DNA of 64,000 nucleotides from Tubulanus polymorphus (GCF_964204645.1 NC_134030.1:4754778-4818777), one strand, 5' to 3'; numbered from the stretch's first letter, positions 40,242-64,000 are shown. Numbers and translations are program-made. The notes: generated by a model from the letters alone, not told the origin.

Positions 40242-41627
40242 ATGATGGCGGCACCATTGACAAGAATAGCAATTCTATGCTCGGGACGAGAGGAAGAGGC
40301 GTATGCTGAAGATATGCTCGGAAATATTCCACAAGAAATGAAGACGGAAAATGTTAAGTTTGTCAATATCCTGCTGAAAACCGAGGAGAGTCTGCTAGAA
40401 TTTACGCTTCGATGTATAGAGCAAATAAAACGAGAAAACTTCGACTTCGTCATATCATTAACCGACAGTACAGCGGTAGTACACGCTAAAATCCATTCCG
40501 TTTTACCAAAGATTCCCGGTCCGTCGTTGGATTCGGTAATGGCGGCGTTTAACAAGATACACGCACGCAAATTCCTAATGAAAGATGGTGGAGGCGTGAG
40601 GTATACCCACTTAGACGTGAATGCTAGTCCGCAAGATATATCAGATGCCGTCAAACTGGTCGGTTTACCGGCGTTCATTAAGCCAATTTGTTTGCACGAT
40701 TCAATAGGTGTAGCGAAAATCAAGAATGAAAATGATATCAAACCGTGTTTACAAATCATAGAAGAGTCGAAAACACGGTACCGGAGGAACGATTTTATTG
40801 GAGTGGGTGAAATTAGACCTGGTGAAGATGGGGCTATATTGGAAGAATACATCGATTCAAAAGCAATAGCTTCAGTTGAAGGGTGCGTTGCAAATAGAAA
40901 TATCATTCATTGGTCAATAACGGATACGTTGTTTTGGCCCAGCAGACCTAGTGCTGTTCTAGGCTGTACATACCCCCCTCCATTCTCACGCGCTCTTCAA
41001 AATGAAATATGGCATGAATTTGATGATATTGTCGGGCGTATGATTGAACTAGGATTCGACAACCAATTCGTCCACGTTGAAATGTTTATCATGGCCGATA
41101 ATTCGATCAAAATAATCGAAATAAACCATCGCTTGTCGACGGTCGTAGCGCCACTTTACAGAGCGTGTCTTCACGATGGTAACGTAGGGGTCGCTCTGAT
41201 GGAAATGAACCGAGGGATAATTCCGAAACACCCGCGGCCGAACGGGAAGTGTGGTCTCGGTGGACAAGTGGTAACGTTTAAATCTGACTTAGCTAAAGAT
41301 CTTATCGACTTTGAATACGCGAAGTCGATTCCCGATGTTGTTATCATAAAATCACCAAATGAAAATGTAGTTTATCCTGGTGATGATGGTGGATGTTTTA
41401 TAGGTGTCGTCAGCGCCTTTGGTGACAACCATCAAGGTAAACCAATGTATCTGAAATATGTCATGTCAAATATCAAGAATGCATTTACGTATGCCATGAA
41501 TAATTCTACGTTTCTCTTCCACATTTCAGATGCATTCAAAAAGTTTTTGCGCATTTCTAGAATGATTTTGAAACAACCTGAATACAGCCCTTCTGAGATC
41601 ACTGATGGTGAAGGCACTTCTGATTGA
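40242..41627 (+). CDS. ATP-grasp amide/peptide ligase, copy A (L-amino-acid-ligase/carnosine-synthase-like fold); join(40242..41436,41530..41627)
   Basis: Motifs NK..AR, VGLPAFIKP, ILEEYI, HVE.F and IIEINHR (ExNxR) are the ATP-grasp signature. Acceptor ttttag at 40226 before the ATG; 93-nt phase-1 GT-AG intron whose position is conserved in paralogs; AATAAA near 41864. Confidence 0.9.
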   Translation: MMAAPLTRIAILCSGREEEAYAEDMLGNIPQEMKTENVKFVNILLKTEESLLEFTLRCIEQIKRENFDFVISLTDSTAVVHAKIHSVLPKIPGPSLDSVMAAFNKIHARKFLMKDGGGVRYTHLDVNASPQDISDAVKLVGLPAFIKPICLHDSIGVAKIKNENDIKPCLQIIEESKTRYRRNDFIGVGEIRPGEDGAILEEYIDSKAIASVEGCVANRNIIHWSITDTLFWPSRPSAVLGCTYPPPFSRALQNEIWHEFDDIVGRMIELGFDNQFVHVEMFIMADNSIKIIEINHRLSTVVAPLYRACLHDGNVGVALMEMNRGIIPKHPRPNGKCGLGGQVVTFKSDLAKDLIDFEYAKSIPDVVIIKSPNENVVYPGDDGGCFIGVVSAFGDNHQGKPMYLKYVMSNIKNAFTYAMNNSTFLFHISDAFKKFLRISRMILKQPEYSPSEITDGEGTSD

Positions 41628-42575
41628 CCCAAACTGTACTACACGATTGTCCTTCGATCACCCGCTCTACATTGCATTTCTACTACATGTAGCAGCTAAT
41701 TTATTAACATTTTATTGGAAATATCTATATATCTTTCAATGAAATTCATCTTATATGAGTCGCATTTACTTTCGTTGAGATACTCTCTGCTTTCTAACCA
41801 AATGTCACTAAAGGTGTCCTCAACACGTAAATGAATGATTGCAATACAAATTATTTTTTGGCAAATAAATAAATACATGTGATCGAAAGTTTAAATTATT
41901 GAATCTATTTGATCTATCCATCCTTTCGTTGTGGTATTAAACTTGGTGGTTTCGTTGAATAAAGTGCTGTGTTTTAGGCTGAATTAATTTTGAAAATGTC
42001 ATAACGCTCGTGATCCGCGCTGACCTCATTCAAGAGGTAAATATGTATGCACAAGAAATGTATGAAGCCGAGTTCGAGTAACATTTTGACTATCAAACCA
42101 TCGCCAAGATAACAAACCGTACCGTATTAAATCATAAGTACTCTTTCTTGGCTTAGTTATCAATCTATTGATTATAAGACTTCCTTTGCACAGGTCATAG
42201 TAAATTCAAGGTTTATTTAACCTAGAATGAATTCAGATTATACCGCACCTATGTTAGACACTCGTGGTATCTTCAATTCAATAAGTAAGTTTACCGTTTA
42301 TTACTGATTGTTTCACTCTTAAATTGTTGTTTTCTTGGTTTTGAATATAAGGAAGATATTTCTAGTTCGTTGGAAACTTAGATAATTTGATACCATAACT
42401 TATGAAAGATTTATCTCCCTTAAGTACGAGGATCAACGCGAACGCTGTTAGATCGCCTTCTTATCTATAAGTCATATCCTTGTAAATCAACGGTCGATTA
42501 CAAAAAGGTGCGCTGTGTAATCACTTTCTGCATCGGTTATTTCCCGGTTTCAGATATAATACGATATAAATTATC

Positions 42576-43943
42576 ATGGCAGCATCAATAAAAGTAGCGA
42601 TCCTGTGCTCAGGAAAGGAGGACGAGGCGTATGCGGAGGATGTAGTCGAAAATATTCCAGAAGAAATGAAGACGGAAAATGTTACATTTGTCAATATCAT
42701 GCTGAAACCCGAGGAGAGTCTGCTAGAATTTACGCTTCGATGTATAGAGCAAATAAAACGGGAAAACTTCGACTTTGTCATATCATTAACCGACAGTACA
42801 GCGGTAGTACACGCTAAAATCCGTTCCGTTTTACCAAAGATTCCCGGTCCGTCGTTGGATTCGGTAATGGCGGCGTTTGACAAGATTCACGCACGCAAAT
42901 ACCTGATGAAAGATGGTGGAGGCGTGAGATATGCCCACTTAGACCTGAATGCTAGTCCGCAAGATATATCAGATGCCGTCAAACTGGTCGGTTTACCGGC
43001 GTTCATAAAGCCAGTGTCCTTGCAGTATTCAATCGGAGTGGAAAGAATTGACGACGAAAATGATATCAAACCATGTCTTCACATTATTAAAGAAATGGAT
43101 ATTCTATACCAGAAAAATGATGTCACCGGCGTCTTCGAAATTATACCTGATGAAGATGGGGCCATATTGGAAGAATATATCGATTCAGAAGCAACAGCTA
43201 CAGCTGAAGGTTGTGTCGCTAACGGAAATATCATTCATTGGTCAATAACGGATACGTTGTTTTGGCCCAGCAGACCTAGTGTTATTCTAGGATGCGCTTA
43301 CCCGTCCAAACTCCCTCGAGATCTTCAAGATAAGTTATGGCGTGAATTTGATAATATTGTGGGGCGTATGATTGAACTAGGATTCGACAACCAATTCGTC
43401 AACGTTGAAATATTCATCATGGCCGATAATTCGATCAAAATAATCGAAATCAACCATCGTTTGTCGACGGTCGTAGCGCCACTTTACAGAGCGTGTCTTC
43501 ACGATGGTAACGTAGGGGTCGCTCTGATGGAAATGAACCGAGGAACAATTCCGAAACACCCGCGGCCGAACGGGAAGTGTGGTCTCGGTGGACCTCTGGT
43601 TATATTCAAATCAGGGGTAGCTAAAGATCTAATCGACTTTGAATACGCGAAGTCGATTCCCGATGTTGTGATCATAAAATCGCCGGATGAAAATATATTT
43701 TATCCTGGTGATGATGGTGGATGTGTCGTAGGTACAGTTGGTGTATTTGGAGAAAACCATGAAGGTAAATATATGTTATGTTGTTATATCAGTCAAACAT
43801 CAAGACGCGGATAATTTTATCTATTTCTGGTTATTGCAGATACATTCAAAGAATTTTTGCGCATTTCGAGACGAATTTTGAAACATCCGGAATACAGCCC
43901 TGCTCAGCTCACTGGTAGTGGTTACACACACCATCGCGTCTGA
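42576..43943 (+). CDS. ATP-grasp amide/peptide ligase, copy B; join(42576..43764,43840..43943)
   Basis: Tandem paralog of A with the same motifs. A 75-nt intron at the same position restores the C-terminus DTFKEFLRISRRILKHPEYSP...*. The 5'UTR intron 42285-42553 has its splice sites conserved in copy B'. Confidence 0.9.
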
Positions 43944-44790
43944 TCGACCTCCACTCAATACTGTGGTTGGCCTTTCAACTTATTTTGCGTATGGCTGCAC
44001 GTTGTAAACTGTTGCCTCGCTTTGAACCAGGAAAAGACGATCAATGTCCGTACTATTATGGATTTTATCCATGTAATCAACTATTTTAGTTTTGTTCCAA
44101 TTAATCTTTCGTGATCTATTTACAGGTTCTTCGTTGGTTTCATTTATTATTGTTGATTTGCTAGAAATTTTGATTTCGATAGGGCAATGAACATCTGAAA
44201 ATAGTCGGTCGAAACACAACACTTTAAAATGCACGATTTTTTCAAATAGGGGATAACTCGCTATGCCGTAATCGACCACAGGAAAATTATCTGACTTATC
44301 TGACTTAACGCATGTGTGTTTGCCCACAATTTTATCTTCACCGAGACGACCATTACATATTTAGCAAGGAGTATTTTTATCTGGAACTGCGGATTGTGTT
44401 TTTATGTTTAAATATTGTAATCAATATTTTGCCAGGTCATTTGTAGCTAAGAAAACATATTTGTAGATTTTTCCTATGTCCATTAATGGATCTAACCCTT
44501 AGTCTTTGTCACTTTTACCCGGATACCGTTTTGGCAGCTCAAGTAGGCTGTCTTGTTTAGTGAGTACTTTGTCTGCCCAGCGAACTGGCACTATTTTTGA
44601 ATAAGTGATGTAATAGCAATATAAACAACTCTCAACTCACCTGCCCTCGCAACTAGTTTAGCTCTCATCAGGTAATTAGTGTCTTAATATGTCATTAAGA
44701 TTTGGATGAACCAATCGCTAGAAGTTTTGGTCACTAATTTCTTGATGGGAGTGTCTTAATCAACTTGGTTTTTGGCAGCACAGATTTGAT

Positions 44791-47700
44791 CACTCTGTGC
44801 CTGCTATCCAACTGATTAAGACGTAAAATAAACTGGTATTAACACATAAATTCAATCGTTTGAATTTTCAGGTGAGTTACATCCATTTTTCATAGTTAAA
44901 TCTTATATATGTTTTGGCATAAATGTGTACCTAGGCTTAGCTGAGAAATCAGACCTTTATGTAACACGTACATTTGGTACTGAGAGTCAATTTTTATAGA
45001 TTAGGTATTTAATCTAAAATGACGGCTAATGATTATTTGTTTGTAGAAATAGGCCTTTGTATTAAGTATGTAGTTAAAGAAAAGTCATTGTAGGACAATC
45101 TCAGTTACGATCTGATGAAGTATGAGTAATCAAGTAGTATAATATTCGATTCTATTCTGTGTATACTGTAACTAATAAAGAAGTTTCCAGTTTCTAGGCG
45201 CCATTTTGTGGCGGTCCCTCGAGGTCCCTATTGTTGCGATAATTTGCGCTCAATTTTAAAACATAAGTTTAGATTGAATATCATATAGTTCTGCAGTCCC
45301 TTGCTCGACGAAATCAATTTATATACCATTTTAAAGGAAATGAAATGCAGATATTTGCTGGCGATTCTTGGAATTTTTGAACTCAACAATTGAGAACAGT
45401 GACGACGTGAAACCAAGGACCGCATATCTTAACCGTGCGTAAAAGAAATCGCAATATTTATTAATTTTAAAATATCTAAGTATCTCTTCAAGCTATATTT
45501 CCTATTTTCACAGAGGTTAAAGAGGGTTATTTGCAGTTTAAGCCTGCGTTGAATTTTTTTTAATATCTTTCCTGACGACTGATCTGTACCCGCTTGAGTT
45601 TGAGATTACGCGCAAAAGGGGTCTCCCCACTGCGCACCGCCATTTCACTGAACATTGAGATTTGTGAAAAGAAATCGCAAAAATGAAATTTTTTACTGGT
45701 TTGTAATTATCAATATTGCTTCTGATGGTTATATATTACCTTTATTTTCGTATGGTTGAAAATGGACTTTAAGTGTTTTGATGAATTCGAGTTTTGTAGC
45801 GTTGGGAAATTAAAGGATTTCTTGTAAGAGTGGGGACTTTCTGTGTTGGTTGCAAATGTGGCCTAGTTGAGAACCTAATTTGCGTTTCAACCGAATGTAC
45901 CACTCATGGTTGGATACTAGAAAAAAAATCTAAGTTTTTATATATTTTTGAATATGCGGCGCAGCTAAAAGTTGCCAAACTGGACGTTGACCCCCTAAAA
46001 CAGAATATCAAATGGGGGACAGATATGAACCCCTTTAAATATTATATTGGAATTTTATATCAGTAAGGTTTTCTGGTAGATGTTTTCCAGCAAGAAGGTT
46101 GAGATTCATTAAATTCATCGTATGATCGTAGAATGAGGGATTACCAGAGAGAGATATGTGTTAAATATGTCCTAAGCGTTTAAATTGACTGGCACATTTC
46201 ACCATCGACTCTAAAACGTTTGATTTCACCGAACACAAAATCGGCGCTAGGCTGGACGGACTGTATACGACAATTCCTCAACTGGGCCGTTCACACTTCA
46301 ATAGCGGGACAAACCGGATCCCGAAACCAGATTAACGAATTGCCCCCGCCAAAATACGGTACAAAGAAGATATGGATTATCATCTCAAAATATCCCCATG
46401 GAAAATGTGAAGAAATCAAATTACATATAAAAATTTCTTGTCGCAAATCTCAATGTTCAGTGAAATTGCAATGCGCAGTGGGAGACTCCTTTTGCGCGTA
46501 ATCTCAAACTCAAGCGGGTACAGATCAGTCGTCAGGTAAGATATTCAAAAGATTTTAACGCAGGCTTAAACTGCCAATAACCCTCTTTAACCTCTGTGAA
46601 AATAGGAAATATAGCTTGAAGAGATACTAAGATATTTTAAAATTAATAAATATTGCGATTTCTTCTACGCACGGTCTAGATATGCGGTCCTTGGTTTCAC
46701 GTCGTCACTGTTCTCAATTGTTGCGTTCAAAAATTCCAAGAATCGCCAGCAAATATCTGCATTTCATTTCCTTTAAAATGGTGTATAAATTGATTTCGTC
46801 GAGCAAGGGACTGCAGAACTATATGATATTCAATATAAACTTATGTTTTAAAAATGAGCGCAAATTGTTGCAACAATGGGGACCTTGCGGGACCGCCACA
46901 AGATGGCGCCTAGAAACTGGAAACTTCTTTATTATCATAACACTCTGTGCCTGCTATCCAACTGATTAAGACGTAAAATAAACTGGTATTAACACATAAA
47001 TTCAATCGTTTGAATTTTCAGGTGAGTTACATCCATTTTTCATAGTTAAATCTTATATATGTTTTGGCATAAATGTGTACCTAGGCTTAGCTGAGAAATC
47101 AGACCTTTATGTAACACGTACATTTGGTACTGAGAGTCAATTTTTATAGATTAGGTATTTAATCTAAAATGACGGCTAATGATTATTTGTTTGTAGAAAT
47201 AGGCCTTTGTATTAAGTATGTAGTTAAAGAAAAGTCATTGTAGGACAATCTCAGTTACGATCTGATGAAGTATGAGTAATCAAGTAGTATAATATTCGAT
47301 TCTATTCTGTGTATACTGTAACTAATAAAGAAGTTTCCAGTTTCTAGGCGCCATTTTGTGGCGGTCCCTCGAGGTCCCTATTGTTGCGATAATTTGCGCT
47401 CAATTTTAAAACATAAGTTTAGATTGAATATCATATAGTTCTGCAGTCCCTTGCTCGACGAAATCAATTTATATACCATTTTAAAGGAAATGAAATGCAG
47501 ATATTTGCTGGCGATTCTTGGAATTTTTGAACTCAACAATTGAGAACAGTGACGACGTGAAACCAAGGACCGCATATCTTAACCGTGCGTAAAAGAAATC
47601 GCAATATTTATTAATTTTAAAATATCTAAGTATCTCTTCAAGCTATATTTCCTATTTTCACAGAGGTTAAAGAGGGTTATTTGCAGTTTAAGCCTGCGTT

Positions 47701-49171
47701 GAATTTTTTTTAATATCTTTCCTGACGACTGATCTGTACCCGCTTGAGTTTGAGATTACGCGCAAAAGGGGTCTCCCCACTGCGCACCGCCATTTCACTG
47801 AACATTGAGATTTGTGAAAAGAAATCGCAAAAATGAAATTTTTTACTGGTTTGTAATTATCAATATTGCTTCTGATGGTTATATATTACCTTTATTTTCG
47901 TATGGTTGAAAATGGACTTTAAGTGTTTTGATGAATTCGAGTTTTGTAGCGTTGGGAAATTAAAGGATTTCTTGTAAGAGTGGGGACTTTCTGTGTTGGT
48001 TGCAAATGTGGCCTAGTTGAGAACCTAATTTGCGTTTCAACCGAATGTACCACTCATGGTTGGATACTAGAAAAAAAATCTAAGTTTTTATATATTTTTG
48101 AATATGCGGCGCAGCTAAAAGTTGCCAAACTGGACGTTGACCCCCTAAAACAGAATATCAAATGGGGGACAGATATGAACCCCTTTAAATATTATATTGG
48201 AATTTTATATCAGTAAGGTTTTCTGGTAGATGTTTTCCAGCAAGAAGGTTGAGATTCATTAAATTCATCGTATGATCGTAGAATGAGGGATTACCAGAGA
48301 GAGATATGTGTTAAATATGTCCTAAGCGTTTAAATTGACTGGCACATTTCACCATCGACTCTAAAACGTTTGATTTCACCGAACACAAAATCGGCGCTAG
48401 GCTGGACGGACTGTATACGACAATTCCTCAACTGGGCCGTTCACACTTCAATAGCGGGACAAACCGGATCCCGAAACCAGATTAACGAATTGCCCCCGCC
48501 AAAATACGGTACAAAGAAGATATGGATTATCATCTCAAAATATCCCCATGGAAAATGTGAAGAAATCAAATTACATATAAAAATTTCTTGTCGCAAATCT
48601 CAATGTTCAGTGAAATTGCAATGCGCAGTGGGAGACTCCTTTTGCGCGTAATCTCAAACTCAAGCGGGTACAGATCAGTCGTCAGGTAAGATATTCAAAA
48701 GATTTTAACGCAGGCTTAAACTGCCAATAACCCTCTTTAACCTCTGTGAAAATAGGAAATATAGCTTGAAGAGATACTAAGATATTTTAAAATTAATAAA
48801 TATTGCGATTTCTTCTACGCACGGTCTAGATATGCGGTCCTTGGTTTCACGTCGTCACTGTTCTCAATTGTTGCGTTCAAAAATTCCAAGAATCGCCAGC
48901 AAATATCTGCATTTCATTTCCTTTAAAATGGTGTATAAATTGATTTCGTCGAGCAAGGGACTGCAGAACTATATGATATTCAATATAAACTTATGTTTTA
49001 AAAATGAGCGCAAATTGTTGCAACAATGGGGACCTTGCGGGACCGCCACAAGATGGCGCCTAGAAACTGGAAACTTCTTTATTATCATAACACTCTGTGC
49101 CTGCTATCCAACTGATTAAGACGTAAAATAAACTGGTATTAACACATAAATTCAATCGTTTGAATTTTCAG
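44791..49171. repeat. Near-perfect 2150-bp tandem duplication (2 units plus 81 bp of a third)
   Basis: CACTCTGTGCCTGCTATCC... recurs at 44791, 46941 and 49091; identical ORFs are offset by 2150. Confidence 0.95.
45175..46932. mobile_element. Foldback-type element with about 500-bp TIRs (duplicate at 47325-49082)
   Basis: ATAAAGAAGTTTCCAGTTTCTAGGCGCCAT... is inverted at the far end; TIR similarity extends about 45175-45685 vs 46432-46932; flanked by TA (or AT if the termini are shifted inward). Confidence 0.85.
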
Positions 49172-52100
49172 TTTTGTAAAATTGGCAACGCGCAAAAAGT
49201 CCGTTGCTAAACATATAAATATAGAGTGTGATTTACAAAATTCGACTAATCTGTAACCATAATTGTTGATGCCGTTATCGGAATTGGTTCTTTGTAGCAT
49301 ATCATTTACAGTTAACGAGCGAACAGCTAAAACGTCGTCTTGAAAAATTTCACCAAGGTCTGAATATTCTATATATCTGTCATCAATGGGCGTATAGTCT
49401 AAAAGGTTGCGAGTGTGAGCGTTGAAATCGCCACACAATAAGAGGTATTAGTTGTCACAGTTATAAAGTGATATTAATTCAGAATGTAAATCGTCGAACA
49501 ATTCGGCTCTTCCGTAAATACTACTCTCAGGGGGGATATACGCGGAACCTAAAAGTAAATCTTTATCTTCATTTAACATTTTTTTAATCAAATTTAAGCC
49601 AGTGAATTAGTTTACTCGTTTTCTTCTCCATGGTTACACATTTTTTCAGTATCTTTTTTAATAAGAATGACAATTCCACCTGACCGTCTCACTGATAGAT
49701 TTGTTCGGTTGTTCACATATGGGAAAAATCCAAGCTTTTCACAGAAGTCATTCAGCCAAAACTCGTCTGAACTGTCTAGTTTTGTCTCGGTGAGAATTAC
49801 TATATCGTTACAGAGTAGAAGATCAATAAATTCATCGTATTTACTTTTCGATTTAAGCCCGCAAACATTTAAGTTCAACAGTGATATACTAGGGGTTTTT
49901 CCACTTTTCGTATCCACCCAATCCTATTCCGCGTTCATCTCTAGTATTGCCCGTGCATTTTCTAAGGCGGCACTAATGCTATCGGGTCCAGTGTTTTCAG
50001 TAATCACGCTGTCGGTCGATGTCGATGCTTTCGCTTTCTTAGGTACTTGTTTCACCCTCTCTCGTCCGCTATTATTTTGCTGCTGTTGTGTGGGGGTTTC
50101 TTCCGTGATATCTTCGGATGGGGGTCTCTCGCATTTTCTGTCTTCTTTTCTTCTAGCTGTTTCTACGTGTCTGCTCGTATTATCTTCTTTGGTGTTATAA
50201 CGATTAGTATCGGTGTGTAGTTATAATCGGGCTCTTGGTTGTTGATCAATCGACCGTTGCTAGCCATTTTTAGATTTTTTCCACCAGGTATCATGTGTAA
50301 TAGTTTACGGGTGTTAATTTCGTGAAGGCGCTCTATATGAGATTTGCTGCTTCTGAGCCATACAGCTACGAATTTCCTGTTATTTTTCAGTTTACGCTTA
50401 GCTCGCAATATTTTGATTTTAATTTTTTTTCTCGAATGCTAACTTGACGAGTGGTGGTTCCTTGGTTGTTCGTTGTCTGAGTCTAATACACTTTACAATT
50501 TTAGGGGCAGGTTCTGCAAGCAGGGAGAGCATTTCGGTACAATAATTGTTCAAGTTCTCGTTTTCTTCCATTCTGAGTCCAGATATGATCACACAGTTGT
50601 CGGGGTCGTCTAGGGGATCTCGCTTTATTTTGGAATTCACTTCTATTTGCAAATCCGTGCATAAATTTTCCATTTTTTTCATGTCGGATTTTGATGCTGC
50701 TAACTCACTTTTGCATTTTGCTATCGTGGTATTGGCTTTTTTAAGTTTCGCGGTGAGGGCGGCATTTTCTTCGGCTATATCATCTAGTTTTGCGCTGGCG
50801 AACTCAGAGGAAGTTTTAAGATAGGCTTGTATATGATGCCAGCGCATTTGAAGTGCTCTCGCCCTGACGTCATGGCAATTATTTTAAACCGGTTTGTTAT
50901 TCTGAATATACTGCGCGATATGCCGTATAAAATGCATAATGCATTCACCAGTGCGCATGTGAAAACGTGTAAAAAATATTTGTGACAAAGGTAATGTCTA
51001 GTGCATCAAATATTTGATATACCAGTAAGCTTAGCTTATGTGAAACATCCGAAAACAAGAAACATAAACAAAATCAGTTTACTACCAATTGCTGATTTAT
51101 CACTTTTATCAAAGCTTCAAATGATACTTTAATATCGAATTAGGTAATATTTTGATTACTAGTTAACTAACTGCGAACGGTTCTGACGAATAGATTATTA
51201 GATATAATGATGTATAGAGATTCTGTGAAAATTGCTCTTGGTGCTTTATGTAATACAACGGCATAAGATTATCGCGAGTGGACTACATTTCATTGAATGT
51301 AGTTTGAGTTCAGAATTGCGATGGATGTGTATATTTTTCTCAACATCGCTCTCAACCCATTTCCCGAACTGTGGCTGATTTGGTAGTATTTAACTTATTT
51401 CTGAATTAGAATTTCGCTTTTGAAAGGTAATGTCTTATCCTGTGCTTCAAAGTAATTGAAAACTATTTTGGCACGCATATATCAAAAGGATCAAGAAGTA
51501 TTTGCGTACATTTTGAATGTGGTAAAACATATTCACTGATAAAGAATGGCTAAGTGCATTTTAGATATTATGGGGAAATAACTTAATTTATTTGTAGAGA
51601 TAAATTTTATTTTGCGAGTGTTGTAAGAAGTAGGTTTTTATTCGTAACATTTGTTGGTTACGTGCACTCATCATCTTTTTGTGAATTCTTTATTATTATT
51701 ATCATTATTATTATTATATAATAATTATTATTATTAGATTTATTGGATTGTAAATTTATATTGTCGGGTGAATCTTGTACATATTAATATACGTATAAAT
51801 ACATTATGTTCTATCTCAGTCAACAAATAAACAAACGAACGATGTATCTCTAAAAAAGGTTTCCTTGTTGTTTCGGCGTTCAAGTAGTGAATGATGGTAC
51901 ACAGAGGTCGACGTCATCAGGACTGTTCATTGTCATGCACCATGGATCGTGACCCTCATTATAACGAGAAAACTGAATCGAAAGTTAATTGGCGCCTTGA
52001 AGAAAAATAACACATATATTGCCAATGAATAATTTGATATATTATTAAGAATCAATAAGGTTAATTTGAATCAGGAAACTAATAGGCCGCGAGACCACAA

Positions 52101-52356
52101 ACCCTTGATTGTTTTTGTAGAATATACATAGGTACCGGTACGTAAGTCTCTCAGTTGCACAGTCATATCTTTAATCAAAAAGCGATCATAAATCCTAGAC
52201 TGGTCTATTGTTAGTACAATGAAACCTATTCATGTGACTGCGTACCTTATTGGCCACGATGAAGTCATACAACAGTTTGAAATATTTCATATTCTATATT
52301 GCAACTAAATAGTTTTTTTTCAAGCGGGTTATTTGGTACATTTTGACTTCGGTTTC

Positions 52357-53163
52357 TTATTCGGTATCAATCGGTAGAATTCGCCATAATCCCCAATCTT
52401 CGACAAATGTTTCCACGACCACTGTTTTATGCCAAAAAAGTTCGAGGCGCATTTCTGCTTCTTTCGCCTTTTCTTCCAGGATGTCAATTTGACCACAAGC
52501 GCTACTAAAACAAAAATACGCATTTCCACCGGGTCTCAGATATTTACGCGCACCTGCGATGAATCTACCGATGCCCTCGTAACCGGGATCGATGAATCCT
52601 CTTTCGACAATCTTCAGGTCACCGGTCTCGGTGTGGGTCGGGCTAAAGAATGGAGCATTCCAGAAAACAAAATCGAACTTTTCATCTTCGGAAATCGCCT
52701 GGAACACGTCTGAATAGCGCACCTCTCCCGGAACTCCGTAACGCTCGAAATTCGCTTTAGTATTTTCTAAAGCTTGTGGATTGATATCCACCGCTAGAAT
52801 AAAACTAATCTTGGATTTGTTTTGCAGATAATGTATGGTGCTCACACAACCATTTCCGCATCCGATTTCTAGAACCCTCGCATCTTTGCGTGTTTCATCT
52901 GGTAAATTTAGCGCTACATCATCGTAACCTTCAGTAAAACATACATCGGTGAAGGTGACGAATTTCTTACCACAGAATGTTAACTCAGCCTGACCTCCCG
53001 ATTCGATGATCGTGTTTTGATATTCACCAACAAGTTTTCGAACGGTTTCCAAAAGTTGTTTGTGTGTTGTGTCACTAGACATCTTGTCACGTCTGGCGTC
53101 CCGCCCGGCTTTAATCGCAGTCAGAAAAATGTATCGTTTATATGCTCCTGGTTCCAATTTCAT
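52357..53163 (-). CDS. Intronless class I SAM-dependent methyltransferase, HemK/PrmC (MTS)-like; start at ATG 53163 or 53082
   Basis: Motif I VLEIGCGNG, post-I VDINPQAL, SDVF, motif IV DFVFWNAPFF (NPPY-like) and YLRPGG; uninterrupted 270-codon frame. Confidence 0.9.
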   Translation of the reverse strand: MKLEPGAYKRYIFLTAIKAGRDARRDKMSSDTTHKQLLETVRKLVGEYQNTIIESGGQAELTFCGKKFVTFTDVCFTEGYDDVALNLPDETRKDARVLEIGCGNGCVSTIHYLQNKSKISFILAVDINPQALENTKANFERYGVPGEVRYSDVFQAISEDEKFDFVFWNAPFFSPTHTETGDLKIVERGFIDPGYEGIGRFIAGARKYLRPGGNAYFCFSSACGQIDILEEKAKEAEMRLELFWHKTVVVETFVEDWGLWRILPIDTE

Positions 53164-53322
53164 TGCCAAGTTAATTTTCCAATTAAAATATGGTGAACTT
53201 TAATCCTTTTATTTGGAAATTGGCGATAAGAACTCGGTAAATATACTTTTGGTTATGATGTTATCGCCAATTTCAATAGGGTCTGTCAACATTATTTGGA
53301 AAAGAGTACAGAGTACAGCTTT

Positions 53323-53466
53323 ACTAATTGTAAACGCCAATAAAATAGAAATATGGTGACCTTAATCACTTCATTTAGAAACCAAAAGCTTATCTAATGG
53401 GCTTTCTTATCACCCATTTCATAATAAGGTCACCATATTTGTATTTTATTGACATTGAAAATTAGT
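53323..53466. mobile_element. Small palindromic MITE-like element upstream of the methyltransferase
   Basis: CAATAAAATAGAAATATGGTGACCTTA ... TAAGGTCACCATATTTGTATTTTATTG inverted pair. Confidence 0.6.
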
Positions 53467-55236: not shown

Positions 55237-55299
55237 TACTATCTGTTTTAAAATCTTTTGTTAACTTGGTCCATGAATACTACAAGTCTAACCACCAAC

Positions 55300-55400
55300 A
55301 TCCTTCCCAGCAGCGATTCGAACTTCGATGGCATCGCTACACTCAACCACGGCGCAAGACCCTGCCACACTAGACTGGGTGCGCAGGTTTAACCGGCACA
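55300..55400 (-). mobile_element. Possible tRNA-derived SINE head
   Basis: Minus strand CCAGTCTAGTGTGGCAG (A-box-like) ... AAGTTCGAATCGC (B-box-like); no complete cloverleaf. Confidence 0.35.
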
Positions 55401-56280
55401 ATCAGATTGCCCGTTGTATGATCTCTGAGGCAAATTTCACGGATAAACTAAAATAGAACGAAGTATACACTAGGATATATACTGCGACAGGTGGTTTGCA
55501 AAGTTATTGAGGAATAATGATAAAGATCTAGTTCTTCCAGTTATGGAGCTAGAAGTCATAAAGATTGAATGAACCATAATTCATAATAAGTAGAATATAC
55601 AAAGTATGAAAAATTAGAAGAAACGGGCTCAGGCTTGAATCTGTCGTCACTGACGTATATGCATTAGGCAACCCCGAAATTTCCATGCGTTAGTTCACAT
55701 TGCACTTCGGATATGTTGTATATACCCAGGGCCAATAGCTAAATTTCGTCAAGACAGCCCCCAAATTGCCACGGGTTAATAGAGTTGGTATAAATAGGTT
55801 TTCATGCCAAAGGTAGAAAGGTTGAAAAAAAGTAAAGAATTGAGAAAAGATTAAAAAAGTGCTAAAACGTTAGATTATGTCAATCTTTCCAGTAAGCAGG
55901 GTGTAAAGAAAAAAATCATTCCATACCAGAATTTCTATAGGAGTAGGTAAAAATTTGATAATTACTGGATAAATGCAACAAATTATAGATAAAAAAACAA
56001 TTAGATAAGGCAATGTTTATTCATAAAAGCTATGATCCCTAGAGAGAATGTTATAGAATTATTTTTGAAGTTTATATGAAACAATTCGATAAAAATGCTT
56101 CTACTCATTCAAATAAAAAATATAATCCTGGGGCCAGTGCTCAAAAGTTGGTTAGAGTTAACCATGTGGATAGTTGACATAGTGACAATTAAATTTCATT
56201 TCATTTTCATTTCATTTCGTTTATTGATTTAACTTAAATATCGTTCATGTAATACATAATATAATATAATGGCAATACAT

Positions 56281-56734
<454 letters not shown>

Positions 56735-58381
56735 TTGTGTGCTTTCAGAAACTTACATAATTTGACAAGAGTATTTTTTGGGGAATTGAAAAGGGTTGTC
56801 AGTTTATAATGACTAGGTCTTGTTAAACAGAATTGTGGTAAGCACTGTGATCTTAGAATTGTATATTCTGGACATTCAAATAAAAAGTGATATTCATTTC
56901 CAATTACATTTTGGTTGCATTTTAAACAAAATCTCTGGTTTTCAGGTGTATTACTATATCTACCGGTTTCAATCGGTAGTTTGTGATTACTACATCTAAA
57001 CCGGCACAATGTGCGTCGCAATGAAATAGGGAGGTCATGCAAATATGGTTCGAACTTTAGTTCAGTTTTGATCATAGAATACATTAGTCCTTTTGAGCTG
57101 TTACGGCAATCGGCCCTCCATTTTTGAGTAAATTGGTCTTGAAGACGCTGTTTGATCAATTCACCAATAAGTTCAGGATTAACTCGCTCGTGATTTACCC
57201 AGTAGTTCATTAAACCACACTCTTCTAGTGTGCATTTTATATAACTTAACCACTTGGTTGTTTTTCCATGGAGCAAGTGCATATTAAAAAGAATTTCATA
57301 CATTTGACCCGATAATGTCGATACATCATTACATAAAAGCTTTGCCCAGAACTTAACCATTTTACTCTTGATGATTATCGCAAGCGGGGTTCTACCTAAT
57401 TCACCATAGACCATATAATTTGGGGTAGACCGGTTTAGATGTAGTAAATATTTACAAAAACGCAGGTGGTATTTCTCTAAAATAGCAGTTGATTCGTAAC
57501 CCCATATTTCACATGCATACGTAAGGATTGGTTCGACCATAGCATCAAAAAGTTCTAAACCTATGTCTGTATCTAAAGAGTACTGTTGGACCTTTTTCAA
57601 GACAAAAAATAGAGCTTTATTTGCACTTTCCCCAATTTTCTTTCGACATTTTGCAAATGTACCAGTGTAATTAAATAATATTCCTAAGTAGACAAATTCG
57701 TCAACAACTTCGACTTCATGTCGGTGTATAAAAAAAGTTGGTTTTAATCTTGTTTTCCTTTTTTGGAATATTAGTATTTTAGTCTTTGCTGGGTTAATTT
57801 TCAATTTCCATAGGTCACAATATTCAGACAAAGAATCAAGTGCTAATTGTAGGCCTTCCGTCGAGTCAGATAAAATAAGGGTATCGTCTGCATACAAAAG
57901 CACTAAAAGTCTCAACCAGAAATTTACTTCATCATTGTTATCAATACATACACTTTGACAGCCTTTACTCAATAGAAAGTTTTCAAGGTCGTTCACATGT
58001 AGACTAAAAAGTAGTGGGGATAGATTATCTCCCTGCTTGAGACCAATATGACTATGAAAAAACTCGGAATTCCTTCCGTTAGTCGAAACACAACATTTGA
58101 CGGACTTATACATATTTATTACGATATTGTAAAATTTACCTGTGATTCCGTGGTTATCTAATTTTTTCCAAAGTGCTTTTCTCCAGATTTTATCGAACGC
58201 TTTTTCATAATCAATAAATGCACAGTATAATTTGCGATTTTTACCCAAAAACAAGTCAACAACTGATTTCAGTGTAAATATATGGTCAGTAACCCCATGT
58301 TTCTTACGGAAGCCGGCTTGTATAAGATTTAACAACTGGTTGAACTCTAGAAATTCAGATAATCGACTGTTAACCAGACTA

Positions 58382-58881
58382 CTGTCTGTCACACCTACTC
58401 TCCGTGCGACGTTTTGGTCCTAAATGTCGTTAATAATCGGTTTATCTACCTTTATTACGCATCAATTTGTTCAGTGAGGAATTTGCATTCAGAAATAAAC
58501 AACAATTTTCACTTAAGTTGTTTTTGTTTTCATTTATCAGCGATAGTTTACTCAGCATACGCTCGCGTAATGCTGAAAAACCCGCTCCGCGGACGCTCGG
58601 AAACGTTACAGTGACGTCATCACCTGCTCATTAGCATATCAAAATACAGTAGGTGGCGCCACGTGACGGGCCATAAAAGCCGTTTTTCAGCATTACGCGA
58701 GCGTATGCTGGGTAAACTATCGCTGATAGATGAAAACACAAACAAATTTATGCCAATTCATGATTTATTTCTGAATGCAAATTCCTTACTGAACAAATTG
58801 ATGCATAATATTTACAGATCAACCGATTATTAACGAAATTACGGATCAAAACGTCGCACGAAGAGCAGGTGTGACAGACAG
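58382..58881. mobile_element. 500-bp Tc1/mariner-type MITE inserted in the LINE RT
   Basis: TA|CTGTCTGTCACACCT...AGGTGTGACAGACAG|TA with about 200-bp imperfect TIRs. Removing it restores the reading TSCLGKLFT-SLVNSRL. Confidence 0.9.
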
Positions 58882-61766
58882 TAGTAAATAGTTTGCCTAG
58901 ACAGCTCGTTAAATGCCCCGGTAGTTATCTGGGCAATTAGGATCCCCTTTGTTTTTAAAAAGTGGAATTATTGTTGATAGTCCCCAGTCGTGTGGGTAAA
59001 TTCCTGAGTCCAAGATACGATTAAATAAGGTAGTGAGAACAAGTGATAAATCATTTGCAACTGATTTAAGCATTTCGTTGATTATCTCATCGGGTCCGGG
59101 TGACTTGTTATTTTTTAGTTTTTTGATTGCATTTATAACCTCTTCTTCAGTTAGGTCTCTATTAAGGGCATCAAAATTCAACGTTGCAAAATCGAAATCG
59201 AAATGTCCCTATGGGGGCTCAGTATTATCATAGTTGGGTTTTCTATTTAGTTTATGAAAATGGTTCACCAAGTCGTCAAAATTTGCTTCACATTGTGGTG
59301 CATTCGCCTTTTTGCGGAAAAACTTCCAGAAACTTTTAGGATCAGACTTCTTTAACATTCTAATTTCTTGATTAGTTCCTGTCGTGCGCGCATTTCGTTC
59401 ACGATTAACCGATTGTTTATAGTTAGTGTATGCGTTGTTCAGAAATTGTTTAGTTTGTTCATTTTTGGTACTCTTATAGTGCCTTTTGGCACGCCTATAT
59501 GCCCGGCGCTTTTCTATGACATTACGTGAATGGTGACGTGAGGCTTTATCATTGTTGGTACGTTTACCTAGTAATCTTTCCCCCATTGTATCTGGAGCCG
59601 TTCGCTTTAACGTGTCATAGAGACGTTTGTTACAAGTGTTAGGTTCCGCCTGGTTTAATAAATCTTGCTGGATAATATCAATGCCCGTACTATTATGGAT
59701 TTTATCCATGTAATCAACTATTTTAGATTTGTTCCAATTAATCTTTCGTGATCTATTTACAGGTTCTTCGTTGGTTTCATTTATTATTGTTGATTTGCTA
59801 GAAATTTTGATTTCGATAGGGCAATGAACATCTGAAAATAGTCGGTCGAAACACAACACTTTAAAATGCACGATTTTTTCAAATAGGGGATAACTCGCTA
59901 TGCCGTAATCGACCACAGGAAAATTATCTGACTTATCTGACTTAACGCATGTGTGTTTGCCCACAATTTTATCTTCACCGAGACGACCATTACATATAAA
60001 TATAGAGTGTGATTTACAAAATTCGACTAATCTGTAACCATAATTGTTGATGCCGTTATCGGAATTGGTTCTTTGTAGCATATCATTTACAGTTAACGAG
60101 CGAACAGCTAAAACGTCGTCTTGAAAAATTTCACCAAGGTCTGAATATTCTATATATCTGTCATCAATGGGCGTATAGTCTAAAAGGTTGCGAGTGTGAG
60201 CGTTGAAATCGCCACACAATAAGAGGTATTAGTTGTCACAGTTATAAAGTGATATTAATTCAGAATCTAAATCGTCGAACAATTCGGCTCTTCCGTAAAT
60301 ACTACTCTCAGGGGGGATATACGCGGAACCTAAAAGTAAATCTTTATCTTCATTTAACATTTTTTTAATCAAATTTAAGCCAGTGAATTAGTTTACTCGT
60401 TTTCTTCTCCATGGTTACACATTTTTTCAGTACCTTTTTTATAAGAATGACAATTCCACCTGACCGTCTCACTGATAGATTTGTTCGGTTGTTCACATAT
60501 GGGAAAAATCCAAGCTTTTCACAGAAGTCATTCAGCCAAAACTCGTCTGAACTGTCTAGTTTTGTCTCGGTGAGAATTACTATATCGTTACAGAGTAGAA
60601 GATCAATAAATTCATCGTATTTACTTTTCGATTTAAGCCCGCAAACATTTAAGTTCAACAGTGATATACTAGGGGTGTTTCCACTTTTCGTATCCACCCA
60701 ATCCTATTCCGCGTTCATCTCTAGTATTGCCCGTGCATTTTCTAAGGCGGCACTAATGCTATCGGGTCCAGTGTTTTCAGTAATCACGCTGTCGGTCGAT
60801 GTCGATGCTTTCGCTTTCTTAGGTACTTGTTTCACCCTCTCTCTTATTTTGCTGCTGTTGTGTGGGGGTTTCTTCCGTGATATCTTCGGATGGGGGTCTC
60901 TCGCATTTTTTGTCGTCTTTTCTTCTAGCTGTTTCTACGTGTCTGCTCGTATTATGTTCTTTGGTGTTATAACGATTAGTATCGGTGTAGTTATTATCGG
61001 GCTCTTGGTTGTTGATCAATGTACCGTTGCTAGCCATTTTTAGATTTTTTCCACCAGGTATCATGTGTAATAGTTTACGGGTGTTAATTTCATGAAGGCG
61101 CTCTATATGAAATTTTCTGCTTCTGAGCAATACAGCTACGAATTTCCTGTTATTTTTCAGTTTACGCTTAGCTCGCAATATTTCGATTTTAATGTTTTTG
61201 TTCTATGATCACACAGTTGTCGGGGTCGTCTAGGGGATCTCGCTTTATATTGGAATTCACTTCTATTTGCAAATCCATGCATAAATTTTCCAATTTTTTC
61301 ATGTCGGATTTTGATGCTGCTAACTCAATTTTGCATTTTGCTATCGTGGTATTGGCTTTTTTAAGTTTCGCGGTGAGGGCGGCATTTTCTTCGGCTATAT
61401 CATCTAGTTTTGCGCTGGCGAACTCAGAGGAAGTTTTAAGATCGGCTTGTATATGATGCCAGCGCATTTGAAGTGCTCTCGCCCTGACGTCATGGCAATT
61501 ATTTTAAACCGGTTTGTTATTCTGAATATACTGCGCGATATGCCGTATAAAATGCATAATGCATTCACCAGTGCGCATGTGAAAACGTGTAAAAATATTT
61601 GTGACAAAGGTAATGTCTAGTGCATCAAATATTTGATATACCAGTAAGCTTAGCTTATGTGAAACATCCGAAAACAAGAAACATAAACAAAATCAGTTTA
61701 CTACCAATTGCTGATTTATCAATTTTATCAAAGCTTCAAATGATACTTTAATTTTTTTTGTTTTAG

Positions 61767-62493
61767 ATAACATATCATTCATTGGTCAGTAACAGTTGTT
61801 TTGGCCTTGCAGAAGTGCTGTTCTAGGATGCGCTTACCCGTCCAAATTCCCTCGAGATCTTCAAGATAAATTATGGCGTGAATTTGATGATATTGTCGGG
61901 CGTATGAATGAACTAGGATTCGACAACCAATTCGTCCACGTTGAAATTTTCATCATGGCCGATAATTCGATCAAAATAATCGAAATCAACCATCGTTTGT
62001 CGACGGTCGTAGCACCACTTTACAGAGCGTGTCTTCACGATGGTAACGTAGTGGTCGCTCTGATGGAAATGAACCGAGGAATAATTCCGACACACCCGCG
62101 GCCGAACGCTAAGTGTGGCATCGGTGGACAAGTGGTAACGTTCAAATCCGACTTAGCTAAAGATCTTATCGACTTTAAGTACGCGAAGTCGATTCCTGAT
62201 GTTGTTATCATAAAATCACCAAATGAAAATGTAGTTTATCCTCGTGATGATGGTGGATGTTTTATAGGTGTCGTTAGCGCCTTTGGTGACAACCATCAAG
62301 GTAAACCAATGTATCTGAAATATATCATGTACCAAATATCAAGAATGCATTTACGTATGCCATGAATAATTCTACGTTTTTCTTCCACATTTCAGTTGCA
62401 TTCAGAGAGTTTTTGCGCATTTCTAGAATGATTTTGAAACAACCTGAATACAGCCCTGCTGAGATCACTGATGGTGAAGGCACTTCTGATTGA
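61767..62493 (+). pseudogene. ATP-grasp copy A': 5'-deleted, frameshifted pseudogene; intron 62301-62395
   Basis: Homology starts only at IIHW (about residue 220 of A), with small deletions near 61790-61815. The 3' exon and 3'UTR match A. Confidence 0.85.
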
Positions 62494-63346
62494 CCCAAAC
62501 TGTACTACACGATTGTCCTTCGATCACCCGCTCTACATTGCATTTCTACTACATGTAGCAGCTAATTTATTAACATTTTATTGGAAATATCTATGATGTT
62601 TTTTTTTTGGTAAATAAGTAAATACATGTGATCGAATCAATGAATTCTCTAAGTTTAAATTATTGAATCTCTCTGATCTATTCATCATTTCGTTGCTGTG
62701 TTAAACTTGATGGTTTCGTTGAATAAAGCGCTATGTTTTATGTTGCATTAATTCTGACTATGTCATAACGCTCGTGAGCCGCGCTGACCTCATTTAAGAG
62801 CTTAATATGTATGCACAAAAATATATGAAACCGAGTTCGAGTTACATTGTGACTATCAAACCATCGCCCAGATAACAAACCGAACCGTAATAAATGAAAA
62901 TTACTCTTTCTTGGCATAGTTTTTAATGTATTGATTATAAGGCTTTCTTTGCACAGGTCATAGTAAATTCAAGGTTTATTTAACCTACAATAAATTCAGA
63001 TAATACCGCACCTATGTTAGACATTGGTGGTATCTTCAAGTCAAGAAGTAAGTTTAACGTTTATTACCGATTGTTTCACTCTTGAATTGTTGTTTTCTTG
63101 CTCTAAGGAAGATATTTCTAGTTCGTTGGAAACCTAGATGATTTAATACCGTAACTTATGAAAGATTTATATTCCTTAAGTACAAGGACGAACGCAAACG
63201 TTGTTATATCGCCTTCTTACCTATAAATTCATATCGTTATTTGTAGAAAAAATCTGATCAACTGTCAATTACAAAAAGGTGCACTGTGTAATCACTTTCT
63301 AAGTCGGTTATTTACCGGTTTCAGATATCGTACGATATAGATTATC

Positions 63347-64000
63347 ATGGCAGCATCGATAAAAGTAGCGATCCTGTGCTCAGGAAGGGAGGGCGAGGCG
63401 TTTGCCGAGGGTATATTCGGAAATATTCCACAAGAAATGAAGACGGAAAATGCCACATTTGTCAATATCCTGCTGAAACCCGAGGAGAGTCTGCTAGAAT
63501 TTACGCTTCGATGTATAGAGCAAATAAAACGGGAAAACTTCGACTTTGTCATATCATTAACCGACAGTACAGCGGTAGTACACGCTAAAATCTCGTCCGT
63601 TTTGCCAAAGATTCCCGGTCCGTCGTTGGATTCGGTAATGGCGGCGTTTAACAAGATTCACGCACGCAAATACCTGATGAAAGATGGTGGAGGCGTGAGG
63701 TATACCCACTTAGACCTGAATGCTAGTCCGCAAGATATATCAGATGCCGTCAAACTGGTCGGTTTACCGGCGTTCATTAAGCCAGTGGCCTTGCAGTATT
63801 CAATCGGAGTGGAAAGAATTGACGACGAGAATGATATCAAACCATGTCTTCACATTATTAAAGAAATGGATATTCTATACCAGAATGATGTCACCGGCGT
63901 CTTCGAAATCATACCTGATGAAGATGGGGCCATATTGGAAGAATATATCGATTCAGAAGCAACAGCTTCAGTTGAAGGGTGCGTCGCGAACGGAAATATC
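63347..64000 (+). CDS. ATP-grasp copy B' (partial; frame open to the window end)
   Basis: MAASIKVAILCSGREGEAFAEGIFGNIPQEM... is colinear with B apart from one in-frame 3-nt deletion. It is absent from the ORF track because there is no stop inside the window. Confidence 0.88.
   Translation, partial: MAASIKVAILCSGREGEAFAEGIFGNIPQEMKTENATFVNILLKPEESLLEFTLRCIEQIKRENFDFVISLTDSTAVVHAKISSVLPKIPGPSLDSVMAAFNKIHARKYLMKDGGGVRYTHLDLNASPQDISDAVKLVGLPAFIKPVALQYSIGVERIDDENDIKPCLHIIKEMDILYQNDVTGVFEIIPDEDGAILEEYIDSEATASVEGCVANGNI

What the first reader, a model, noticed from the sequence alone, without database searches (positions are those of the whole stretch)
40242..64000. Candidate animal biosynthetic gene cluster: tandem ATP-grasp ligases plus a HemK-like methyltransferase (plus GPCR)
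Seen: four stand-alone ATP-grasp genes (the complete copies about 430 aa) flank an intact intronless SAM methyltransferase within 24 kb of an animal genome. Known: ATP-grasp ligases make non-ribosomal amide bonds (carnosine synthase, BacD/L-amino-acid ligases, NikS), and ligase plus N-methyltransferase is the logic of anserine/balenine synthesis and of many microbial clusters. Physically clustered small-molecule pathways are rare in animals. Inference: the locus may make a methylated dipeptide or amide (toxin, pheromone or osmolyte), with A and B taking different substrates.
Basis: partly seen in the sequence, partly recalled or inferred. Interest (0 to 1): 0.88.

Follow-up and report, generated by a model that had tools for sequence, protein, structure and literature searches.

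The report
Ribbon worm ligase-methyltransferase gene array
A ribbon worm carries a recently duplicated stretch with three apparently intact copies of an unstudied enzyme predicted to join small acids to amines, next to a bacterial-type enzyme predicted to add methyl groups to small molecules; each likely makes or modifies a small compound, but whether they work as one pathway or are only neighbours is untested.

Summary
The genes are real and the host is the nemertean Tubulanus polymorphus (source names of paralogues). Ligases A and B are 430 aa with one shared intron, D runs off the window, and C is a 5'-truncated fragment. The GPCR copy is frameshifted. The ligases have a full L-amino-acid-ligase-like ATP-grasp fold with intact catalytic residues and dN/dS 0.29. 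They belong to an uncharacterised family also found in acorn worms and amphioxus, whose nearest named bacterial relatives lie in cyanobacterial amino-acid-tailoring operons. The methyltransferase is not HEMK1 or N6AMT1. It groups with bacterial enzymes, and its top fold match is a carbamoyl N-methyltransferase. So both enzyme types look like small-molecule enzymes. A shared pathway is not shown: the block is a young, LINE-rich segmental duplication, older worm paralogues of the two enzymes lie on different contigs, and no bacterial locus joined these two families. Verdict: a real candidate, roughly one in three to be a functional cluster.

The parts
40242..41627 (+). ATP-grasp ligase A, 430 aa, two exons (40242-41436, 41530-41627)
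   Evidence: public model P0002 equals its last 331 aa
42576..43943 (+). ATP-grasp ligase B, 430 aa, two exons (42576-43764, 43840-43943); 80% identical to A
44040..51133 (-). 5' piece of a LINE-like element (44040-44360 and 49211-51133, 98-99% like 59677-61752), interrupted by a repeat with 503-bp inverted ends
52357..53082 (-). HemK-fold SAM methyltransferase, 241 aa, motif FWNAPF...DPGY; a second in-frame ATG at 53163 would give 268 aa
54327..55236 (-). rhodopsin-family GPCR, frameshifted near its start in this assembly (7TM frame 54327-55196)
56671..61752 (-). broken LINE-like retrotransposon (reverse transcriptase 56671-58419)
61772..62493 (+). ligase copy C, 5'-truncated fragment without start or N-terminal half; same intron (62301-62395)
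   Evidence: its junction also stands in contigs of 3 of 4 laid runs
63347..64000 (+). ligase D, cut by the window edge; 93% identical to B when continued by public protein P0001

Best explanation
This is a young tandem duplication in a ribbon worm that holds three apparently intact ATP-grasp genes, predicted to make an amide from a small acid and an amine, beside a bacterial-type methyltransferase predicted to N-methylate a small molecule, and the two are likely co-amplified neighbours rather than an old conserved pathway. Mechanism committed to: each ligase phosphorylates a carboxylate with ATP and lets an amine attack the acyl-phosphate (inferred from fold and residues); A and B/D probably differ in substrate (inferred from 20% divergence under purifying selection); the methyltransferase holds an amide or amine nitrogen at its NAPF motif next to SAM (inferred from fold matches). 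The ligase family is old in marine invertebrates; the methyltransferase family probably came from bacteria into the worm's lineage (inferred from trees with thin animal sampling). Both came to lie in one repeat-rich block that has been copied several times together with an orphan GPCR. Shown: gene structures, duplication, folds as models, family placement. Not shown: expression, activity, substrates, coupling.
For: Duplication: 40900-41728 matches 61772-62594 at 93% and 41851-43232 matches 62600-64000 at 90%, LINE pieces at 98-99%. Further ligase and methyltransferase paralogues (P0004, P0005) are recorded on a contig of the same length, 23,044,209. Divergent GPCR copies exist too (contigs with 54 of 367 and 80 of about 495 laid letters different). 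Ligase integrity: model pLDDT 91, top Foldseek hits BacD/YwfE and BL00235, VIA Z 30.1 to 3vot and 31.3 to PurK; K109, K151, E205, E283, E296, N298, R300 kept in the four Tubulanus rows that span them and in 29-31 of 36 rows (their roles are recalled); dN/dS A vs B 0.29 over 418 codons. Old animal family: of 20 homologues looked up, 11 carry names: 6 acorn worm, 3 amphioxus, 1 Tubulanus, 1 Okeania; the worm copies sit with acorn-worm proteins inside a 30-row clade (SH-aLRT 97) apart from the Okeania clade. Methyltransferase: separated from NPPY-type PrmC/HemK2-like rows by a 99/93 branch, grouped with Streptomyces, rhizobial and Roseobacter-group proteins at 94/91; top fold hit 9l4q carbamoyl N-methyltransferase, then GenN. 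Not conserved as a pair: older paralogues P0006 (ligase) and P0202 (methyltransferase) lie on contigs of 16.5 and 21.6 Mb; 0 of 5 ligase-bearing cyanobacterial genomes matched the worm methyltransferase at E<=1e-5 with this query; none of 5 plasmid loci of its closest relatives held the ligase family.
Against: Two rare small-molecule-type enzymes are immediate neighbours, which chance does not favour. The ligase's bacterial relatives do sit beside (unrelated) SAM methyltransferases: Pfam-confirmed in 3 of the 7 loci (L006, L009, L011, the only three whose candidates were scanned), weak profile hits in two more, so ligase plus methylation recurs as a logic. The methyltransferase's relatives lie in biosynthetic-looking gene runs in 3 of 5 loci read. 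Both facts favour the functional-cluster rival. The unlinked older paralogues do not exclude a young cluster, and other paralogues may have been missed by the word-based searches. VIA Z for 9l4q (21.8) is only about 1 above human HEMK2 (20.8) and PrmC (20.7), so the fold alone does not fix a small-molecule substrate.
Confidence: 0.52

Rival explanations
1. A true, lineage-young biosynthetic gene cluster: the ligases make an amide or dipeptide and the neighbouring enzyme N-methylates it (or its precursor); the block was amplified for dosage and product variety.
For: Adjacency within 9 kb; amide/amine N-methyltransferase fold matches (9l4q, GenN, AerE); cyanobacterial ligase operons hold PLP decarboxylase, BBOX/TauD oxygenase, reductases and a SAM methyltransferase; 2 of 5 methyltransferase relatives lie directly behind an asparagine-synthetase-like amide-forming gene; P0003 and P0005 differ at three residues just after the NAPF motif and along the C-terminal hairpin, as expected if substrates diverge; coral terpene clusters show that animal clusters exist (PMC11784711, passages).
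Against: No conserved linkage shown; older paralogues unlinked; the bacterial partner methyltransferases are not detectably homologous to the worm enzyme by tblastn, so the pair was not inherited as an operon; the GPCR and LINE pieces were co-duplicated as well, so co-duplication is not selective for enzymes; 21 amino-acid changes against at most 32 base changes between the two methyltransferase copies suggests weaker constraint than on the ligases (my arithmetic).
Confidence: 0.33
2. The methyltransferase is a protein or RNA methylase (release-factor or RsmC-like) with a housekeeping or unrelated role; only the ligases do small-molecule chemistry.
For: RefSeq-derived name of the paralogue P0005 is 'release factor glutamine methyltransferase-like'; PrmC, HEMK2 and RsmC are near the top of the sequence and fold lists.
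Against: 48.4 bits against a cut-off of 199.1 for PrmC and 62.1 against 87 for HemK2/MTQ2; no N6AMT1 hit at E<=0.001 although such chains are in the library; NAPF instead of NPPY; a clade with the two NPPY-type 195-aa rows is rejected, p-AU 0.002 (group named, no animal HEMK1/N6AMT1 in the tree).
Confidence: 0.1
3. Bacterial contamination or an assembly artefact.
For: Bacterial-type enzymes; a 2231-bp stretch is 100% duplicated at 44791/46941.
Against: Shared GT-AG intron in A, B and C; LINE, microsatellites, GPCR and an Ig-domain gene around them; contigs of independent DNA runs bridge upstream non-coding DNA into gene A and flanks into the methyltransferase (table 8; the best holder may be the assembly's own sample); relatives in other animals for the ligase.
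Confidence: 0.03

Closest known systems
L-amino-acid ligases BacD/YwfE, BL00235, RizA (PDB 3vmm, 3wo1, 3vot, 4wd3)
   Same: Three-domain ATP-grasp fold with C-terminal domain over about 400 residues (Foldseek E 1e-20 to 1e-17, VIA Z 26-30); E-x-N-x-R and lysines kept.
   Different: 13-17% identity; PurK, PurT and GAR synthetase fit equally well; NCBIfam BacD score 14.9 against 850; substrates unknown; animal gene with an intron.
Carnosine synthase CARNS1 plus carnosine N-methyltransferase CARNMT1 (PMC6920838 and PMC11514484, passages)
   Same: Animal ATP-grasp ligase followed by N-methylation as pathway logic.
   Different: Single 430-aa module here; CARNS1 is about twice as long with two modules and is not clustered with CARNMT1 (both recalled). 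No CARNS1 sequence was available to compare. The methyltransferase is HemK-fold.
HemK-fold small-molecule N-methyltransferases Asc-Orf2 (9l4q), GenN (5u1e), apramycin N-methyltransferase (23lq), AerE (7rc2)
   Same: Top sequence-profile and fold matches; similar size; lacks a PrmC_N Pfam hit.
   Different: 16-20% identity; functions taken from PDB titles only; the worm enzyme belongs to an uncharacterised WNxP..DPGY subfamily.
Uncharacterised cyanobacterial operons of Okeania, Lyngbya, Dapis (loci L006-L012)
   Same: Nearest named bacterial ligase relatives, 27-30% identity, beside a SAM methyltransferase and amino-acid-tailoring enzymes.
   Different: Their methyltransferases are other families; the worm locus has no decarboxylase, oxygenase or reductase in the window.
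Soft-coral terpene biosynthetic gene clusters (PMC11784711, passages)
   Same: Co-located specialised-metabolism genes in an animal genome.
   Different: Those have enzyme activities shown; here no activity, product or conserved linkage is shown, and the chemistry would be amide formation.

Membership tests
ATP-grasp carboxylate-amine ligases | Three-domain ATP-grasp fold | tested here: met
   AlphaFold model pLDDT 91, pTM 0.91 of paralogue P0004; Foldseek and VIA matches over residues 8-429
ATP-grasp carboxylate-amine ligases | ATP/Mg-binding lysines and glutamates, E-x-N-x-R | tested here: met
   K109, K151, E205, E283, E296, N298, R300 present in A, B, D and P0004; roles recalled from the family
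ATP-grasp carboxylate-amine ligases | ATP-dependent amide formation | not testable with these tools
   needs an enzyme assay
BacD / L-amino-acid ligase | Curated family score | tested here: not met
   NF053745 14.9 bits against 850; works like one by fold, is not a member
Carnosine synthase CARNS1 | Long two-module ATP-grasp protein (recalled) | tested here: not met
   A and B are single 430-aa modules with own start and stop
Carnosine synthase CARNS1 | Orthology in a tree with CARNS1 | not tested
   no named CARNS1 sequence came from any call
PrmC / HEMK1 | Curated score, NPPY motif, N-terminal PrmC domain | tested here: not met
   TIGR03534 48.4 against 199.1; NAPF motif and separate clade; no PrmC_N hit
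N6AMT1 / HemK2 | Clear sequence similarity to human N6AMT1 | tested here: not met
   not among the 4 hits at E<=0.001; with a family profile N6AMT1 scores 43 bits, below 9l4q at 66; TIGR00537 62.1 against 87
Small-molecule HemK-fold N-methyltransferases (Asc-Orf2, GenN type) | Closest fold match and SAM-binding motif | tested here: inconclusive
   9l4q ranks first in both fold searches but only about 1 Z unit above HEMK2 and PrmC; EIGCGNG motif intact
Animal biosynthetic gene cluster | Non-homologous enzymes side by side | tested here: met
   ligase B end 43943, methyltransferase 52357-53082, ligase copies from 61772
Animal biosynthetic gene cluster | Linkage conserved beyond recent duplication | tested here: inconclusive
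   no animal genomes could be searched; older paralogues in the same species lie on different contigs
Animal biosynthetic gene cluster | Co-expression | not testable with these tools
   see Tried and rejected
Animal biosynthetic gene cluster | Sequential reactions giving one product | not testable with these tools
   needs reconstitution and metabolomics
Gene of bacterial origin (methyltransferase) | Nested among bacterial sequences, embedded in animal DNA, missing from other animals | tested here: inconclusive
   nested at 94/91 with long branches; embedded; the only named animal rows among 44 hits are Tubulanus, but that search is word-limited and was seeded partly with cyanobacterial rows

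The most novel reading that the evidence does not exclude
The block is a newly assembled animal biosynthetic gene cluster: an old, never-characterised family of single-domain amide ligases of marine invertebrates has been joined in the ribbon-worm lineage by a bacterial-derived amide/amine N-methyltransferase, re-creating independently the ligase-plus-methyltransferase pairing seen in cyanobacterial operons, and the duplicated copies make a small family of N-methylated amides for defence, signalling or osmotic use.
Probability: 0.3. Interest if true: 0.82.

Novelty: new variant of a known kind. Interest (0 to 1): 0.52.

Why it matters
Even without coupling, the locus exposes two uncharacterised animal enzyme families: a stand-alone amide-ligase family expanded in acorn worms, amphioxus and a nemertean, and a bacterial-type N-methyltransferase so far seen only in Tubulanus among named animals. 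Both are short, nearly intron-free and easy to assay. If coupled, it would be an animal gene cluster for non-ribosomal amide chemistry caught while forming, and a first genetic handle on small-molecule chemistry of palaeonemerteans; the passages read of the nemertean toxin review (PMC6410017) list pyridine alkaloids, TTX and peptides, and showed no product that fits these enzymes.

Tried and rejected
No whole genome is held, so neighbouring windows and other animals could not be read. Expression: no RNA holder listed; the one run guessed to be RNA laid 0 contigs; this says nothing either way. Contig depth over the methyltransferase and GPCR was two to four times that over ligase A in X1, but the tool states depth is no copy number, so it is not used as evidence. 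Joints 52071-39121 and 55355-39120 were considered as links between methyltransferase copies and ligase A's upstream region and rejected as probable small repeats (sequence, high repeat depth at 55300-55483). Single-sequence searches found only Tubulanus paralogues and no PDB sequence hit for ligase B. Metagenome scans: worm methyltransferase 0 relatives among 182 candidate stretches; Streptomyces-clade alignment gave 80 mostly generic methyltransferase loci, one with a weak ATP-grasp hit of 21.5 bits, uninformative. Cyanobacteria: ligase family in 3 of 401 genomes searched, methyltransferase match in 80 of 401, mostly PrmC-like by motif in the 11 put in the tree; the two DPGY-type genomes (G283, G149) were not among the three with the ligase. 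A recalled indolmycin precedent (Ind2 as N-methyltransferase) was wrong: Ind2 is a reductase and Ind7 the methyltransferase (PMC8246080, passages); dropped. Recent bacterial transfer of the ligase was rejected. Literature: no paper on this family or locus surfaced (search listings; 0 papers), nor the term ATP-grasp in the two supplementary files of PMC4729200; subscription journals and bioRxiv supplements were not searched, and PMC10262820 was not held. Earlier-findings look-ups gave nothing for this genome or these sequences and only unrelated bacterial loci by words. Pfam on 95 further open frames found only an Ig domain. No complex prediction was run: enzymes of a small-molecule pathway need not bind.
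Full report
What is there. The window is animal DNA of about 38% GC with microsatellites, LINE pieces and an Ig-domain gene at its left end. Source names of paralogous proteins give the host as the ribbon worm Tubulanus polymorphus. Four ATP-grasp segments lie on the + strand. A (40242-41627) and B (42576-43943) each give 430 aa after one GT-AG intron at the same position, and are 80% identical. The public protein P0002 equals the last 331 aa of spliced A. C (61772-62493) starts at about codon 230, has no start codon and is a fragment; its junction also stands in contigs of 3 of 4 laid runs. D starts at 63347 and runs off the window; public protein P0001 continues it. The methyltransferase is one open frame of 241 aa (52357-53082, - strand). 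The GPCR frame (54327-55196) has its likely ATG at 55236 out of frame; contigs of 3 of 4 laid runs carry a net 38 more bases there, which puts it in frame, so this copy is broken and others are probably whole.

The block is a young duplication. The 3' half of A with its downstream DNA matches C at 93%, the A-B spacer and 5' half of B match the C-D spacer and D at 90%, and LINE pieces match at 98-99%. A further ligase (P0004, 429 aa) and a further methyltransferase (P0005, 91% identical) are recorded on a contig of the same length as this window's genes; their positions could not be read. Divergent GPCR copies exist as well. So co-duplication covers enzymes, receptor and transposon alike and is by itself no sign of a pathway.

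The ligases. A model of P0004 from 36 rows has pLDDT 91. Foldseek ranks BacD/YwfE and BL00235 first; VIA gives PurK Z 31.3 (rmsd 3.3, 359 aligned), BL00235 30.1 (3.6, 363), PurT 29.4, BacD 28.3. Identities are 11-17%, so fold gives the chemistry class, not the substrate. The ATP-grasp residues K109, K151, E205, E283, E296, N298 and R300 are kept in A, B, D and P0004 (roles recalled). dN/dS between A and B is 0.29 over 418 codons and 0.17-0.35 in every 60-codon window, including the first 120 codons that the public models of A and D leave out, which argues for full-length proteins. A search of 1.84 billion representatives gave 514 hits at E<=0.001. Of 20 looked up, 11 carry names: six acorn worm, three amphioxus, one more Tubulanus, one Okeania; nine are unnamed. 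In a 52-row quick tree the worm copies group with their older paralogue P0006 (99) among acorn-worm proteins (88), inside a 30-row clade (97) apart from the Okeania clade (rows were chosen by length and rank). The family is therefore old in marine invertebrates, with a possible remote bacterial link. Seven cyanobacterial loci were fetched. Their neighbours include a PLP decarboxylase, HD protein, BBOX/TauD oxygenase, reductases and a class I methyltransferase (L009), or a betaine-type binding protein, an amino-acid dehydrogenase and a SABATH-type methyltransferase (L006) (17 frames from 4 of the 7 loci were scanned). This supports a role in amino-acid-derived small molecules by inference from gene neighbourhood. 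The family was in 3 of 401 cyanobacterial genomes searched; two of those lacked such an operon in the frames scanned.

The methyltransferase. It scores below the cut-offs of PrmC (48.4 vs 199.1) and HemK2/MTQ2 (62.1 vs 87), and does not hit human N6AMT1 at E<=0.001 although those chains are in the library. It has FWNAPF and a downstream DPGY shared with an uncharacterised bacterial subfamily. In a 32-row careful tree the three Tubulanus proteins are one clade (100/99), grouped with Streptomyces, rhizobial and Roseobacter-group proteins (94/91, unstarred) and cut off from NPPY-type rows by a 99/93 branch; forcing them with two NPPY-type 195-aa rows is rejected (p-AU 0.002) (32 of the 57 rows; no animal HEMK1 or N6AMT1 was available; branches are long). 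A model (pLDDT 91) matches first 9l4q, titled carbamoyl N-methyltransferase Asc-Orf2, then the gentamicin N-methyltransferase; by VIA 9l4q has Z 21.8 (rmsd 2.9, 201 aligned) against 20.8 for HEMK2 and 20.7 for PrmC, a thin lead. Of 60 plasmid records with a match five were read: three lie in biosynthetic-looking runs, two of them right behind an asparagine-synthetase-like gene; two do not. Among 44 profile hits the only named animal rows are Tubulanus, from a word-limited search. A bacterial origin is likely but unproven. A contig matching P0005 at the diagnostic sites I checked by hand differs from the window by 32 bases over 52205-53126, while the proteins differ at 21 residues; that implies dN/dS of roughly 0.6 or more (my arithmetic), relaxed or diversifying.

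Is it a cluster? For: two rare small-molecule-type enzymes are immediate neighbours; the methyltransferase fold suits amide or amine nitrogens; ligase relatives in cyanobacteria sit beside methyltransferases. Against: those bacterial methyltransferases are not detectably homologous to the worm's; 0 of 5 ligase-bearing genomes matched it with this query and none of the five plasmid loci holds the ligase family, so the pair did not arrive as an operon; the older worm paralogues P0006 and P0202 lie on contigs of 16.5 and 21.6 Mb, apart from each other and from this 23.0-Mb contig; tandem arrays seem usual for this ligase family (three near-identical Ptychodera paralogues with neighbouring accessions); no other tailoring enzyme was found in the window. 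Conservation in other animals, co-expression and chemistry could not be tested.

Comparison with the known. It works like an L-amino-acid ligase plus a GenN/Asc-Orf2-type N-methyltransferase, and echoes the carnosine-to-anserine logic (PMC6920838 and PMC11514484, passages), but fails membership of BacD, CARNS1 by architecture (recalled), PrmC and N6AMT1. Animal clusters are known for coral terpenes (PMC11784711, passages). Microbial-like genes in acorn worms and amphioxus are known (PMC4729200, passages and a term search of two supplementary files), without the term ATP-grasp. The searches listed under Tried and rejected found no paper on this family or locus.

Verdict. Observation largely right, with C a fragment and the GPCR broken. 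Best reading (0.52): a co-amplified neighbourhood of two uncharacterised small-molecule-type enzymes in a young duplication. Functional cluster 0.33. Novelty: new variant of a known kind. Interest 0.52; 0.82 if coupling is shown.

Noticed in passing
window 44791-49171: A 2231-bp stretch is repeated at 100% identity with period 2150; each unit has 503-bp inverted ends (95%) like a non-autonomous DNA transposon. It interrupts a LINE piece; other copies skip it (joint 44354-49211). The perfect tandem may be real or an assembly duplicate.
   Followed up: partly
window 54327-55236: Orphan rhodopsin-family GPCR (7tm_1, Srsx/Srw hits) with several divergent copies in the runs and a frameshifting loss of 38 bases in this copy.
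   Followed up: partly
window 2-1018: Exons of an Ig-domain gene on the - strand; Cdon/Ihog- or protogenin-like by recalled resemblance only.
   Followed up: no
window 12360-13561: 23-bp minisatellite, 52 copies, with a 69-bp higher-order unit.
   Followed up: no
L008-L012, about 6000-14500: Uncharacterised operon in Okeania, Lyngbya and Dapis: PLP decarboxylase, HD protein, ATP-grasp ligase, BBOX/TauD oxygenase, AlaDh/PNT-family enzyme, SDR, SAM methyltransferase, DUF2785.
   Followed up: partly
L006 205-4738: Okeania run of betaine-type binding protein, Glu/Leu/Phe/Val dehydrogenase, SABATH-type methyltransferase and the ligase; suggests an osmolyte-like product.
   Followed up: no
proteins P0057, P0065, P0090, P0097, P0127, P0132; L041 9077-11296: Ligase relatives are fused to a thiol dioxygenase (PCO_ADO), an acyltransferase (AAT), flavin monooxygenases, a gluconolactonase-like propeller, and in P0132 (a distant hit) a methyltransferase.
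   Followed up: no
alignment, rows P0031, P0034, P0040, P0044, P0045: One clade of the ligase family has lost the conserved lysines and E-x-N-x-R, so likely inactive or repurposed.
   Followed up: no
window 40242 and 63347: Public models of A and D start at an internal Met (residue 98-100) and omit the N-domain, though the upstream frame is open and constrained; B has no exact record among the cluster members seen.
   Followed up: partly
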